Shown: positions 11,591-58,877 of the stretch, piece by piece
Layout: every line of letters begins with the position of its first letter
How positions within the stretch are numbered: the stretch's first letter is position 1
NCBI GenBank assembly: GCA_964016885.1
Contig: OZ024743.1
Span: 97,526,001 to 97,590,000 of the forward strand
Reading direction: 5' to 3'
Source: Eledone cirrhosa
Lineage: Eukaryota
Length of the DNA: 64,000 nt
Program-made: the position numbers and the translations under genes
The notes under the pieces: model-generated
The model's database searches: none
What the model saw: only the letters and a program-made list of their open reading frames with translations
Told to the model about the DNA's origin: nothing

Positions 11591-11775
11591 ATTATTCAAA
11601 ATATTGACTGCCAAGACTGGAATTGAACCATCAAGAGAGTTGAGTTATGTCATACATCAATTCATGTATTTTATCTGATGAGGACGTACTGAAAAAACAG
11701 CACCTCCGAAATATATATAATAAACCATATATTTTGATTATGTGAACGTCATCATTTATTAATATTTTGAATAAT
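11591..11775 (+). mobile_element. Hammerhead-bearing short element in (TA)n with 15-bp inverted ends
   Basis: attattcaaaatatt ... aatattttgaataat, flanked by (TA)n. Confidence 0.75.
11670..11724 (+). ncRNA. Minimal type I hammerhead ribozyme
   Basis: Stem I tttat/ataaa; CTGATGA at 11675-11681; stem II ggacgtactg-aaaaaa-cagcacctcc; GAAA; palindromic stem III ATATATAT; AUA cleavage triplet (after 11719). Confidence 0.8.
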
Positions 11776-12044
11776 ATATATATATATATATATATATATA
11801 TATATATATATATTTATATTTTTATATTATTTATATATATATATATATATATATATATATATATATATATATATGTATATATATATATATATATATATAT
11901 CAGCTGGACGGCTGGAACAGGTAAAAGGGTTAAAGAATATATATATGTATGTATATACTTATTCATATAATAAATATAATTATATATATTCATATATATA
12001 TATATAAAAAATATATATTTTCTATTATTTTATTTTATTACGTA

Positions 12045-12340
12045 TTCCAACCGTGAAGCTGAGGCCATGCTGGGACATCATTATTAATGCTAAACTGTCT
12101 ATAGCCACCTTTCCCTTGTTGGCCATTGATGCAAAAGGGTGTTTATTGGTGTAAATTACTTCCCTTAAATTGCCTATTGTTGTTTTCAGCCAATCCGTAT
12201 ATGGCATCCAAATCTTGTTGTAACATCAGCCGGTGTCTTTATTGCTTGTCCTACCTTTGTGTCATCAGCATAGCTCGTGAGGAATGGTGTTGTATTATAG
12301 AGGGCCTGTCTGAGAGCGATCACCCTAGGCACTCCAAGAC
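12045..12340 (-). pseudogene. CR1/L2-type LINE reverse transcriptase fragment
   Basis: 'LTSYADDTKVGQAIKTPAD', then after a frameshift 'LQQDLDAIYGLAENNN'. Confidence 0.8.
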
Positions 12341-13269
12341 ATATATACATATATGCATAAACACACACACAATATATTCATATATTCACACACACACACT
12401 CACACACACTCACACACACACACACACACACACACACACACACACACATACACACACACACACATATATATATATATATATATATATATATATATATATA
12501 TATATATATATATGCATGTGTCTAGTTGTTCTAAATCTGAATGTAGCCATGTCAGGTCGAAGTTGTCAAACTGAAGTTAAACAAATTGATCTGTGAAAGG
12601 ATCAATTTTAAGCCAAGTGCACGTGTATTCCGTAATAGAATTATCTAAGCTACACATCTAATTGTATGCATGGACATTGACATTGGGTAGTACACATGCT
12701 TCTACATACAGATATTTAAATCGAATGGATAAACACTACAAAACCCAATTTAAAACAGGAACATTATGAATTTAATATAATTAAGCCTTTCTAACATTCT
12801 AAATCATACACGTCTATAAATTTGTATGAATATATATGCATATACATACAAACACATGCACACACAAACACCCACACGTACATATAGTGCCATACATACT
12901 CACTCACATACACAGATATACATATCCTTATATGTATATATGTATGAAAAGACATATTTGCCGAGAGCATGGATTCATTAACAAGGGATAAATGAAATAA
13001 AAGTGGGCAGTTGCCTGAATTCTAATATTTAAGATAATAGTTGAGTACAATATGCTGTACACAAAGAATCGTTATTTTATATACATTTCCTTCTCGCGTT
13101 GAGATGAAAATGTATAATTTAATAGCAATTTTTAGGATTGAGAAAGGGAGAAAATTTTAAGAAATTAACCACAAAAGTTTGTTTAACGATATGACTATAA
13201 ACATAGCTTGATCTTTTTTCGGACGCGAATAATAATAAAGCAAAGAGATTCGTATGTCTGGCCTCCAAA

Positions 13270-13371
13270 AATAATTGTTTCTACTTTTGGCACAAGGCCA
13301 GCAATTATCCATTGCATTACTGGTACTTTATTTTATCGACCCCGTAAGGATGAAAGGCAAAGTAAACCTCC
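13270..13371 (-). mobile_element. SINE 3' part
   Basis: taattgtttctacttttggcacaaggccagc...ttttatcgaccccgtaaggatgaaaggcaaagt. Confidence 0.85.
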
Positions 13372-56800: not shown

Positions 56801-57051
56801 GTAATGTATCCCCGGAAAATCACTATAGAAAGAAAAAAGGCCATAGATTAGAAAACTCGTGATTTCTCTCTATTTGACCATAGTAAATAAATGATACAGA
56901 CTGTAGGTCTTTGATTCGATGAGATTATTCAATCTTCCATTAACCCACTAACCACTTTGGAAAACACATGAATGCCAAAGTTGTGTATCAACGTCCTGTA
57001 ACTTTGAGGCGTTTCTCCTTTGTCGGAGAAATGTCATTATTACGCAATACA

Positions 57052-57239
57052 CGGTGAATTGGCAGTATCGGTAGAGGGTTGGACGCCATGCTTTCTAGCA
57101 TAGTTACGTCCCTTTACGGTTTGAGTTCAAATCCTGCTGAGGTTAACTTTGCCTTTCATCCTTACGGGGTCGATAAAATAAAGTACCAGTAATGTATTGG
57201 GTTTTGCTGGCTTTGTGCCTAAAGTAGAAACAATTATTA
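57052..57239 (+). mobile_element. Octopus-type SINE, full length
   Basis: ggtgaattggcagtatcggtag...gagttcaaatcc...aaagtagaaacaatta. Confidence 0.9.
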
Positions 57240-58437
57240 CGCAATACACATTCACAAACTAAAATATATTTCACAATAAGCAGCTTACTTTCAATATCCG
57301 CGCCTATTGGCAAAGTTTGTGTTATAGGTTCGGTGTCCGGGTTTATCTATCACCGAGATCAACTCCGCAGTTCATCATTCTGGGGTCGATAAAATAATAT
57401 ATTTCATTACTGGCGTCGATACTTCCACTTATTCACTTCCTCCCCCCTTAACGCTCTCTTCTTCTATGGAATACATTTGCTATGTTAAGACTTGGAGAAA
57501 GGATGGGTTACACCAACACACGTCACATGTCCCTATTGTGCCTCTACGATTCCATTAGGTATTTGGGGTCCATGCATATGGATTGCATTCTAGTATATCT
57601 AACCTTATATCACGACTCGATAATGTACTAGCTAAATAATGCTTAGAAAGTATTTTATCTAAAGGCAAACATACAGTCCACCGCAGGAATGGAATACAAA
57701 TTCTAAAAGTTAGTAAAACACTACTTTCTAAAATTATTCTCCACCACCCCGATACTTTTAAACCATTAATAAACTATATTAAACTATATTCATTGCACAT
57801 TCTATATTTGATGATAGAAAGCAAATTCCCCGCAATAAAGAAAAACACATTCGGATTAAAGAGGTGTTCAATCAAATTATTGAGTACATACAGATCTTAA
57901 TTTTATGCTGTGTCAGCTTTTGGCTAAATCAGATCAATATAATAAGTGAAGCAAGCCACTGACTCAAAATTAATCGTTGGGATATTTTCGCTACACCTTA
58001 CTTTGCTAACACTTGTACTAGGAAATTGAATGTCTCAAAATAATTAATCGCAATGCCTAGAATACAGATTATAATGCTGATTAAAAATCAATAAACTTCT
58101 AAATCAGTCATTACAGATATTCTGTAATCGCACTCAGTGATCTATTATAGTTGATGGAATTTTGAATGCATAATAATACTGACTTATATGAAAATGCTGA
58201 CGGGAAATATTCAGCTATATCCTTTTTCTTATACTTCCGAGTAGGCTTTAAAAAAATCACCAATATCTATCCAGGTTTAATCTTCAATTATATAATTATA
58301 TTAATATAGATTTAAATAAATAGATTGCTTGATTGATAGCTAGACAACCAGATAAATACATAGATTAATCGATCGATAAATAGGTGTATATATATATATA
58401 TATATATATATATATATATATATATATATATATATAA

Positions 58438-58877
58438 AATATATTAATAAATGGAAACTATATTTATAAAACCATATTTATTTTATTATACATATTTCAA
58501 GGGCAACCAAGGCAAATTAGGGTGCACTTTCATCAGATAAAATACAGATTTGCTTTATAAATAAATATTGCCATACCCGGGAAAAAGACAACCTTAACGG
58601 TTGGAGCTTCTTGGATTGCTCCAACCGTTAAGGTTGTCTTTTTCCCGGGTATGTCAATATTTATTTATAAAGCAAATCTGTATTTTATCTGATGAAAGTG
58701 CACCCTAATTTGCCTTGGTTGCCCTTGAAATATGTATAATAAAATAAATATGGTTTTATAAATATAGTTTCCATTTATTAATATATTGTGTATTTACTCC
58801 ACTAAACTGTTGAGTGCTTTATATGAGTTATAAAAATGTTTAAGCTTGATGAATCCCAACAAATTAAATATAACCTC
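58438..58877 (+). mobile_element. Fold-back element: 170-bp arms (58438-58607 and 58618-58787), 10-nt loop, 90-bp tail
   Basis: I see one mismatch between the arms. Pure (TA)n on both sides. Each arm carries a hammerhead. Confidence 0.92.
58681..58746 (+). ncRNA. Minimal type I hammerhead ribozyme (mirror copy on minus strand at about 58479-58544)
   Basis: tattttat-CTGATGA-aagtgcacc..ggttgccctt-GAAA-tatgta-TA-ataaaata. Confidence 0.85.

What the first reader, a model, noticed from the sequence alone, without database searches (positions are those of the whole stretch)
11670..58746. Three related hammerheads keep core, stem I and an (AT)4 stem III while stem II changes
Seen: the motifs at 11670, 53664 (minus) and 58681 share gtattttat-CTGATGA and GAAAtat(a/g)tATA-ataaa, yet stem II has a different sequence and still pairs in each (ggacgtactg/cagcacctcc; gagcgtaccaa/ttggtatcctt; aagtgcacc/ggttgccctt). 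That pattern suggests selection on structure. Established: minimal PLE hammerheads have palindromic stem III loops and are thought to cleave as dimers. Inference: here the palindrome ATATATAT is the same sequence as the genomic target repeat, which may link ribozyme dimerisation and target choice.
Basis: partly seen in the sequence, partly recalled or inferred. Interest (0 to 1): 0.75.

Follow-up and report, generated by a model that had tools for sequence, protein, structure and literature searches.

The report
Hydra-clade Penelope hammerheads; palindrome not target
These are real but already described miniature hammerhead RNA motifs, predicted to cut only in pairs, at the ends of Penelope-like jumping genes; their stems were likely kept by selection on the active parent elements, and the proposed link between the AT palindrome and target choice fails because sister elements with other palindromes insert into the same AT repeats.

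Summary
The three motifs are real, and a fourth lies on the inverted arm at 58482-58541. They are minimal type I hammerheads in the terminal repeats (pLTRs) of Hydra-clade Penelope-like elements: 14,799 exact-pattern copies in the genome (control 0), with full-length parents carrying the Hydra protein motifs.

Stem II does covary (7 of 9 pairs), but only between subfamilies. Single copies decay neutrally: 18 core changes against 14.1 expected from flanks.

The palindrome-target link is not supported. Half the family has ATATGTAT (7,426 of 14,799), including the 58681 copy. Another 27,996 matches with other palindromes, mainly ATGCGCAT and ATGATCAT, also end in (TA)n in the copies sampled. Published Hydra families target (TA)n without an (AT)n stem III. 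The (AT)4 tract shows only passive effects: slippage and rare microhomology junctions.

Two side results were not found in print: an unpaired C·C/C·U at stem II pair 4 in several divergent families, and twin hairpins beside both 3' ends. The scan had already noted these hammerheads and the hairpins on other DNA. Verdict: new members of a known kind; low interest.

The parts
11670..11724 (+). Minimal type I hammerhead, A-type subfamily. Stem I 11670-74/11720-24, CUGAUGA 11675-81, stem II 11682-11707 with a 5-nt deletion, GAAA 11708-11, ATATATAT 11711-18, predicted cut after 11719.
11586..11776 (+). Short pLTR copy: starts about 11606 (about 69 nt before the core), ends about 50 nt past the cut site in (TA)n, with a 16-20 nt inverted 3' end at 11586-11605.
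53667..53721 (-). Minimal hammerhead, C-type subfamily, ATATATAT stem III.
53611..53826 (-). Short pLTR copy holding that hammerhead; a long (TA)n run at its 5' side and a short TA run at its 3' end (5' end approximate).
58684..58743 (+). Minimal hammerhead, B-type subfamily, ATATGTAT stem III (G·U wobbles in the predicted dimer).
58482..58541 (-).
58429..58880 (+). Head-to-head fold-back (arms 58429-58607 and 58618-58796, 98% complementary) with a one-sided tail to about 58880, flanked by (TA)n: the typical inverted-pLTR-plus-tail unit.
   Evidence: layout described in PMC8557442 and PMC3846280
58796..58817 (+). First tail hairpin motif (ACTCC..GAGTGC), just 3' of the short end; candidate signal for the start of reverse transcription (inferred).
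10836..10893 (+). Control family: minimal hammerhead with ATGATCAT stem III, at the end of a 3-kb fold-back (about 7947-10946) whose right arm ends in a TA run.
8001..8058 (-). Inverted partner of the control-family hammerhead; U16.1 changed (ATGATCAG).

Best explanation
The motifs are minimal type I hammerheads in short, likely inert pLTR copies of Hydra-clade Penelope-like retrotransposons, where stem III is likely selected only to stay self-complementary for a predicted dimer, and (TA)n targeting likely comes from the element's protein rather than from the ribozyme.

Shown: the order in full-length copies is hammerhead, two tail hairpins, ORF with RT and C-terminal GIY-YIG, long 3' UTR, hammerhead. 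Copies end about 50 or about 140 nt past the cut site in (TA)n. Stem II covaries between subfamilies, the core decays like flanks within them, and the palindrome varies while the target does not.

Inferred: transcription starts about 65-87 nt before the core at an Inr-like site (TATA box 29 nt upstream in the A type). The protein nicks (TA)n and starts reverse transcription inside the RNA at one of two AU-rich spots just 5' of the hairpins. Copying to the RNA's 5' end then yields the 120-230 nt copies, which span the cut site and so came from uncut RNA. Cleavage, when it occurs, would need two ribozymes paired through stem III, perhaps with protein help.
For: Parents: L155 has two hammerheads 3,676 nt apart around a broken RT-EN ORF; L151, L152 and L154 carry related ORFs. 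18 of 30 read-through loci have an intact hammerhead upstream, and all 18 have the ORF starting about 20 nt after the second hairpin. The Hydra motifs LRW, DKT, CxCx5C, CxxC and CxH, with no Cys pair inside GIY-YIG, are present. GIY-YIG hit E=1.5e-4, just under Pfam's cut-off.

Covariation: 7 of 9 stem II pairs, 97.4% of cells paired against 34-49% for slid partners. Decay: core 18 vs 14.1 expected; 22 of 92 flank-anchored copies have core damage.

Target: (TA)4+ within 200 nt downstream in 102 of 107 copies of the five larger subfamily groups, 23 of 26 ATGCGCAT-family copies and 18 of 30 ATGATCAT-family copies (some of the latter end just beyond 200 nt); background 33%. Published Hydra data agree. 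Internal RT start at two sites and insertion from uncut RNA are shown in vitro for Anolis Poseidon (PMC11167929). 5' ends: 18 of 29 B-type copies stop at -65 to -81.
Against: No cleavage, dimer or expression was shown. RNAfold does not form stem III in any of the four family copies as monomers, and its dimer fold is not a hammerhead; the AUAUAUAU duplex is only -3.2 kcal/mol against -10.5 for AUGCGCAU. Pfam does not detect the RT domain, so clade assignment rests on motifs and on a by-eye match to published Hydra alignments, not on a tree with reference elements. One effect does depend on the palindrome: 5' junctions into (TA)n at stem III or the cut site occur in 6 of 37 loci against 0 of 45 in the ATGCGCAT family (p=0.007). 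The covariation alignment was of representatives I chose, and related sequences share changes. No parent ORF was found for the ATGATCAT family.
Confidence: 0.88

Rival explanations
1. One reading: the (AU)4 stem III doubles as a guide or primer-binding site for (TA)n DNA, coupling dimerisation to target choice.
For: Stem III is ATATATAT in 7,373 of 14,799 copies, and also in two further hammerhead families that end in (TA)n. 5' junctions into (TA)n at stem III or the cut site: 6 of 37 vs 0 of 45.
Against: Half the family has ATATGTAT, and the two forms alternate on the ORF tree. 27,996 matches with other palindromes; the sampled copies share the target. 0 of 26 published Hydra rows have (AT)n in stem III. 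The insertion junctions lie about 50 and 140 nt downstream of stem III. The stem III junctions are on the order of a hundred loci against at least 18,405 flank-anchored copies (my estimate).
Confidence: 0.05
2. The dispersed copies are themselves functional ribozymes kept by selection on the host genome.
For: Very high copy number; 70 of 92 flank-anchored copies keep an intact core.
Against: Core substitution rate equals the composition-matched flank rate (ratio 1.28, P(<=obs)=0.88), and the count leaves out recurrent changes, so it understates core decay. The window's 11670 copy has a stem II deletion not seen in 100 listed relatives.
Confidence: 0.03
3. The motif is kept in active lineages mainly as a protein-bound structure or 5' UTR element (for example through the fixed C·Y mismatch in stem II), and rarely cleaves in vivo.
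For: All copies studied span the cut site. No direct cut-site junction in 45 ATGCGCAT-family loci. Very weak stem I and III in this family. Ribozyme mutants do not affect insertion of Anolis Poseidon in vitro and its cleavage needs the protein (PMC11167929). Pair 4 is unpaired in 60 of 60 copies.
Against: All catalytic residues and the UH site are invariant across lineages whose ORF DNA differs by about 0.6 changes per site, which is what selection for chemistry predicts. My samples required the core or its 5' flank, so they could not show copies that start at the cut site. Two ATGCGCAT loci join near the cut site through filler or an inverted tail.
Confidence: 0.25

Closest known systems
Hydra clade of C-terminal-endonuclease Penelope-like elements (Craig et al. 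2021, PMC8557442; passages, sections 3 and 11, supplement part 2 and passages read)
   Same: RWK-like, DKT, CxCx5C, CxxC and CxH motifs; no CCHH; canonical hammerhead near the 3' end; (TA)n insertion; inverted truncated copy and tail.
   Different: Units here are longer (3.3-3.7 kb against mostly under 3 kb) with a 1.1-1.5 kb 3' UTR. The tail is about 90 nt (30-40 bp is given for PLEs generally). Stem III is an 8-nt palindrome, where most published Hydra rows have 4 bp plus a central base. Stem II is 9-10 bp with a fixed C·Y mismatch that I did not see in the published rows.
[quoted passage not shown]
   Same: [quoted passage not shown]
   Different: No bulged base between A9 and 10.1 is needed in this family, and pair 10.1-11.1 is A-U or G·U more often than G-C. 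The palindrome is AU-rich and weak.
Poseidon element of Anolis, PAc (Frangieh et al. 2024, PMC11167929; parts 1-2 of 4 read)
   Same: Two internal RT start sites downstream of the hammerhead give short and tailed ends; AT-rich target; uncut RNA is the template.
   Different: In PAc the ORF starts inside the hammerhead and the start site is reported as not homologous to the target. Here the hammerhead is about 195 nt upstream of the ORF, and both modal ends sit in AT-alternating sequence before a conserved hairpin.
Animal (non-LTR) retrozymes (bioRxiv 10.64898/2026.07.22.740005; part 1 of 5 read)
   Same: Type I hammerheads in non-coding repeats derived from PLE pLTRs.
   Different: Retrozymes are defined as tandem arrays; these copies are mostly solo or head-to-head and are colinear with ORF-bearing parents.

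Membership tests
Minimal type I hammerhead (PLE type) | Core CUGANGA, GAAA and UH in type I order | tested here: met
   All four window copies; invariant in 7 of 7 subfamily majority sequences
Minimal type I hammerhead (PLE type) | Helix I 4-5 bp and long helix II with compensatory changes | tested here: met
   Helix I 100% paired; helix II 95% paired with 7 of 9 pairs covarying
Minimal type I hammerhead (PLE type) | Short self-complementary helix III | tested here: met
   ATATATAT or ATATGTAT in 82 of 92 flank-anchored copies; sister families keep palindromes with other letters
Minimal type I hammerhead (PLE type) | Unpaired base at the 5' end of stem II and conserved G10.1-C11.1 | tested here: not met
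   Pair 1 is A-U 16 and G·U 14 of 30 in register. The paper lists these as common traits, not requirements.
Minimal type I hammerhead (PLE type) | Self-cleavage as a dimer | not testable with these tools
   Folding predictions do not give the active dimer; RNA contigs do not cover the motif
Penelope-like elements (EN+) | Single ORF with RT and C-terminal GIY-YIG between pLTRs | tested here: met
   L155 and L156 pLTR-ORF-pLTR; YRDD and YVGST motifs; Pfam GIY-YIG E=1.5e-4; homologues annotated PF26215
Penelope-like elements (EN+) | 5' truncation, inverted truncated copy, one-sided tail | tested here: met
   58429-58880 and many loci
Hydra clade | RWK and DKT motifs, CxCx5C linker, CCHH absent, CxxC and CxH near the C-terminus | tested here: met
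   LRW, DKT, CNCRxKxxC, CNLC/CDLC and CxH, against the definition
Hydra clade | Insertion into (TA)n | tested here: met
   102 of 107 copies vs 33% background
Hydra clade | Placement in an RT phylogeny with reference Hydra elements | not tested
   Reference proteins were seen only as paper text; the tree holds only local copies
Neptune/Nematis clades | CX2-5CxxC linker and CCHH finger inside GIY-YIG | tested here: not met
   Linker is CxCx5C; no Cys pair between the GIY- and YIG-like strands. My first guess of Neptune was dropped.
Non-LTR retrozymes | Tandem arrays of hammerhead-bearing units | tested here: not met
   Window copies are solo or head-to-head; short tandem pairs were seen only occasionally (L029/L030)

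The most novel reading that the evidence does not exclude
A large group of Hydra-clade elements keeps two unreported RNA signals while everything around them turns over: an obligate C·C/C·U mismatch at pair 4 of hammerhead stem II, a docking site for a tertiary or protein contact that would let a ribozyme with very weak stems I and III work, and twin RCTC..GAGYRC hairpins that place the two reverse-transcription starts on AU-alternating template able to pair with the nicked (TA)n primer.
Probability: 0.35. Interest if true: 0.5.

Novelty: new member of a known kind. Interest (0 to 1): 0.2.

Why it matters
The finding itself is ordinary: covarying, palindrome-bearing hammerheads in PLE pLTRs were described in 2014, and (TA)n targeting of Hydra elements in 2021. 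Its value is as a natural experiment. Sister families with the same target and different palindromes separate ribozyme dimerisation from target choice. The genome also holds a young family with an apparently open 821-aa frame (L157) that could serve as an in vitro system. With it one could test what PLE hammerheads do, whether the fixed C·Y mismatch is a docking site, and whether the twin hairpins set the start of reverse transcription. These questions are open for the whole class.

Tried and rejected
Rfam: no hammerhead among the 150 of 188 matches shown, nearly all microsatellite-driven miRNA noise.

Neptune assignment: rejected on motifs.

Pfam and PDB searches of the long ORFs gave nothing useful.

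Cut-site footprint: the raw 11 of 37 junctions shrank to 6 of 37 after inspection of all 11. Four were slippage expansions of stem III in intact copies and one was an expanded stem III beside an inversion. The first Fisher value is superseded. The denominators were counted by eye: 37 distinct loci from the first 100 of 1,403 rows, and 45 from all 87 rows. The two samples differ in age and coverage. Only direct joins to (TA)6 were tested, not joins to inverted arms.

One search's pattern was off by one for the intended family; it served only to reveal other families.

The C at pair 4 was partly built into my family classifier, so I rely, which does not condition on stem II.

Parent ORF for the ATGATCAT family: not found within about 1.5 kb upstream in 20 loci or in one 9.9-kb stretch.

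RNA evidence: two RNA runs of equal size, contigs only; one 168-nt ORF piece and no cover of the hammerhead; uninformative.

A family-specific dimer code: self duplexes beat cross duplexes in most predictions, but unrelated families share ATATATAT, so it is not claimed.

Lünse et al. (dimer kinetics) is not held; I know it only from its citation in PMC6765202 and from recall.

My note of a 7-nt deletion was wrong; it is 5 nt.
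Full report
OBSERVATION. The three motifs are present at the stated places. The pattern CTGATGA-N10-35-GAAA occurs 7 times in the window against 1.38 expected, and 0 of 100 shuffles reach 7. All three read as type I hammerheads: TTTAT, CUGAUGA, stem II, GAAA, an 8-nt stem III, A at the cut position, ATAAA. Four points need correcting. Stem III is ATATATAT at 11670 and 53664 but ATATGTAT at 58681. The stem II sequences are homologous variants. The pairing quoted for 11670 follows from a 5-nt deletion: 444 genomic copies match its subfamily pattern and 0 of the first 100 listed have the deletion.

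WHAT THEY ARE. The window lies in a 3.0-Gb genome (G000). The full motif has 14,799 exact matches there, with 0 for the reversed control. A pattern built only from flanks has 18,405 (control 5). Copies are 5'-truncated and end about 50 or about 140 nt past the predicted cut site in (TA)n. A (TA)4+ run lies within 200 nt in 102 of 107 copies of the five larger subfamily groups, against 33% background (three further copies in two small groups also had it). Many have an inverted truncated partner. This is the layout described for PLEs (PMC8557442; PMC3846280).

Full-length parents exist. L155 has two hammerheads 3,676 nt apart around a broken RT-endonuclease ORF, and L151, L152 and L154 carry related ORFs. 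Of 30 loci that read through the tail, 18 have an intact hammerhead upstream, and all 18 have the ORF starting about 20 nt after the second tail hairpin; they include A-type and B-type stem II. The protein has LRW, DKT, a CxCx5C linker, no Cys pair inside GIY-YIG, and CxxC and CxH near the end. These are the defining traits of the Hydra clade. Pfam gives only a borderline GIY-YIG hit (E=1.5e-4) and no RT hit. No tree with reference elements was built.

COVARIATION AND WHERE SELECTION ACTS. On 20 sequences (17 subfamily representatives chosen by me, plus the 3 window copies), 7 of 9 stem II pairs show changes on both sides. 97.4% of cells pair, against 34-49% when partners are slid by 1-3 columns. 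The shuffle control is mixed: 0 of 500 shuffles reach the covariation score, but 99 of 500 reach the number of covarying pairs, and relatedness inflates such counts. The core is identical in 7 of 7 subfamily majority sequences whose flanks differ widely; A-type and B-type ORF DNA differ by about 0.6 changes per site.

Among single copies the picture reverses. I took 99 copies by flank anchors alone from the first 30 Mb of one contig, and 92 fell in clusters of three or more. Rare core substitutions number 18 against 14.1 expected from composition-matched flanks; stem II gives 49 against 41.1; 22 of 92 copies have a damaged core. So structure was selected in the transposing lineages, and the inserted copies decay neutrally. 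Cervera and De la Pena (PMC4209133) already report consensus families full of compensatory changes and a palindromic helix III.

PALINDROME AND TARGET. The link fails four tests. First, the family itself is split 7,373 ATATATAT to 7,426 ATATGTAT, and the two forms alternate on the ORF tree; U·G wobbles would keep the dimer helix. Second, 27,996 matches (control 4) have stem III of the form ATGNNCAT, mainly ATGCGCAT and ATGATCAT in the 100 listed. They end in (TA)n in 23 of 26 and 18 of 30 sampled copies, with modal ends at about +45 to +55; several ATGATCAT tails run just past the 200-nt limit. Third, older families have ACATATGT, ACACGTGT, ACGTACGT or ACGATCGT-like palindromes (549 matches, control 45), and many of the sampled ones also end in TA runs. 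Fourth, in the supplement of PMC8557442, 26 of 27 Hydra families list (TA)n as target, and 0 of 26 Hydra hammerhead rows have an alternating AT stem III. That paper ties targeting to the endonuclease linker.

What varies in concert is self-complementarity, which fits the dimer model (PMC4209133; review passages in PMC6765202). The (AT)4 tract does have passive effects. Among 37 loci where (TA)6 lies within 30 nt upstream of the tail anchor, 6 are true 5' junctions at stem III or the cut site, against 0 of 45 in the ATGCGCAT family (p=0.007). At least 6 others are slippage expansions of stem III in intact copies; 23 of the 37 were inspected. Microhomology explains the junctions better than cleavage, because the sister family has the same cut site and shows no direct join. 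I estimate on the order of a hundred such loci, under 1% of copies.

LIKELY MECHANISM. Shown: the anatomy, the two 3' ends, and clustered 5' ends (18 of 29 B-type copies at -65 to -81 from the core, near CCACT/TCACT; TATAAA 29 nt upstream in the A type). A TATA plus TCACT promoter is proposed for rotifer pLTRs. Inferred: the pLTR promoter makes an RNA that begins about 70 nt before the hammerhead. The protein nicks (TA)n and starts reverse transcription internally at one of two sites, as shown in vitro for Anolis Poseidon, where uncut RNA is the main template and cleavage needs the protein (PMC11167929). Copying to the RNA's 5' end gives short copies that contain an uncut hammerhead; longer read-through gives ORF-bearing units. 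Cleavage would need a dimer. Prediction gives only -3.2 kcal/mol for the AUAUAUAU duplex and no active fold, so help from protein is likely needed. None of this was measured.

SIDE RESULTS. These samples were not conditioned on stem II. Two further small groups show it (3 copies each, classifier partly circular). The older families do not (22 of 30 paired). One search (hammerhead, C-C mismatch, stem II) found 0 papers; the main kinetic paper and the figures were not available, so novelty is uncertain.

(b) An RCTC..GAGYRC hairpin motif lies within about 0-15 nt 3' of each modal end. The two-hairpin pattern has 579 matches against 26. The outer pair is A-T in the first hairpin and G-C in the second, and the template just before the hairpins is AT-rich and often alternating (the alignment ends overshoot through this microhomology). 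By eye the motif also follows the hammerhead in published coral Hydra-2_Amil. One search found nothing on it. The scan had noted these hairpins earlier; I found them before reading those notes.

VERDICT. The novel inference is not supported. New members of a known kind; interest 0.2.

Noticed in passing
window 7947-10946: 3-kb fold-back of a second hammerhead family (ATGATCAT stem III), arms about 1.45 kb without a long ORF. L241/L326 shows a 1.9-kb tandem unit with both tail hairpins; no parent ORF was found, so it may be non-autonomous or have a very long 3' UTR.
   Followed up: partly
stem II pair 4: window 11685, 53706, 58699 (changed to T there), 10850; L001-L030, L121-L150: Fixed C·C or C·U mismatch inside an otherwise covarying stem, in families whose proteins are 52% identical; absent from older families.
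   Followed up: partly
window 58796-58817; L328-L357: Twin RCTC..GAGYRC hairpins just 3' of the two modal insertion ends; 579 read-through matches against 26 control.
   Followed up: yes
L262, L310, L315, L316, L317, L321: The (AT)4 stem III expands by slippage into a (TA)6+ microsatellite in otherwise intact copies.
   Followed up: yes
all sampled families, within about 10 nt 3' of the cut site: An AATAAA (or ATTAAA-like) hexamer recurs in or just after the 3' strand of stem I. If it were used for polyadenylation the RNA would lose the tail hairpins; unexplained.
   Followed up: no
L157:1529-3991 (+), L159, L156: Young ATGCGCAT family with long open frames (821, 775 and 738 aa) and copies 94-98% identical in protein; probably recently active.
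   Followed up: partly
window 35509-36917, 38665-41904, 63090-63839: Decayed non-LTR reverse transcriptase ORFs unrelated to the Hydra protein (no tblastn hit to the window); family not determined.
   Followed up: no
window 61871-61898 (+): CTGATGA..GAAA match with a short possible stem II but no palindromic stem III or stem I; probably chance or a remnant.
   Followed up: no
window 6004-6194 and 7770-7960: 191-nt inverted pair, 83% complementary, matching the long tail of the ATGATCAT family.
   Followed up: no
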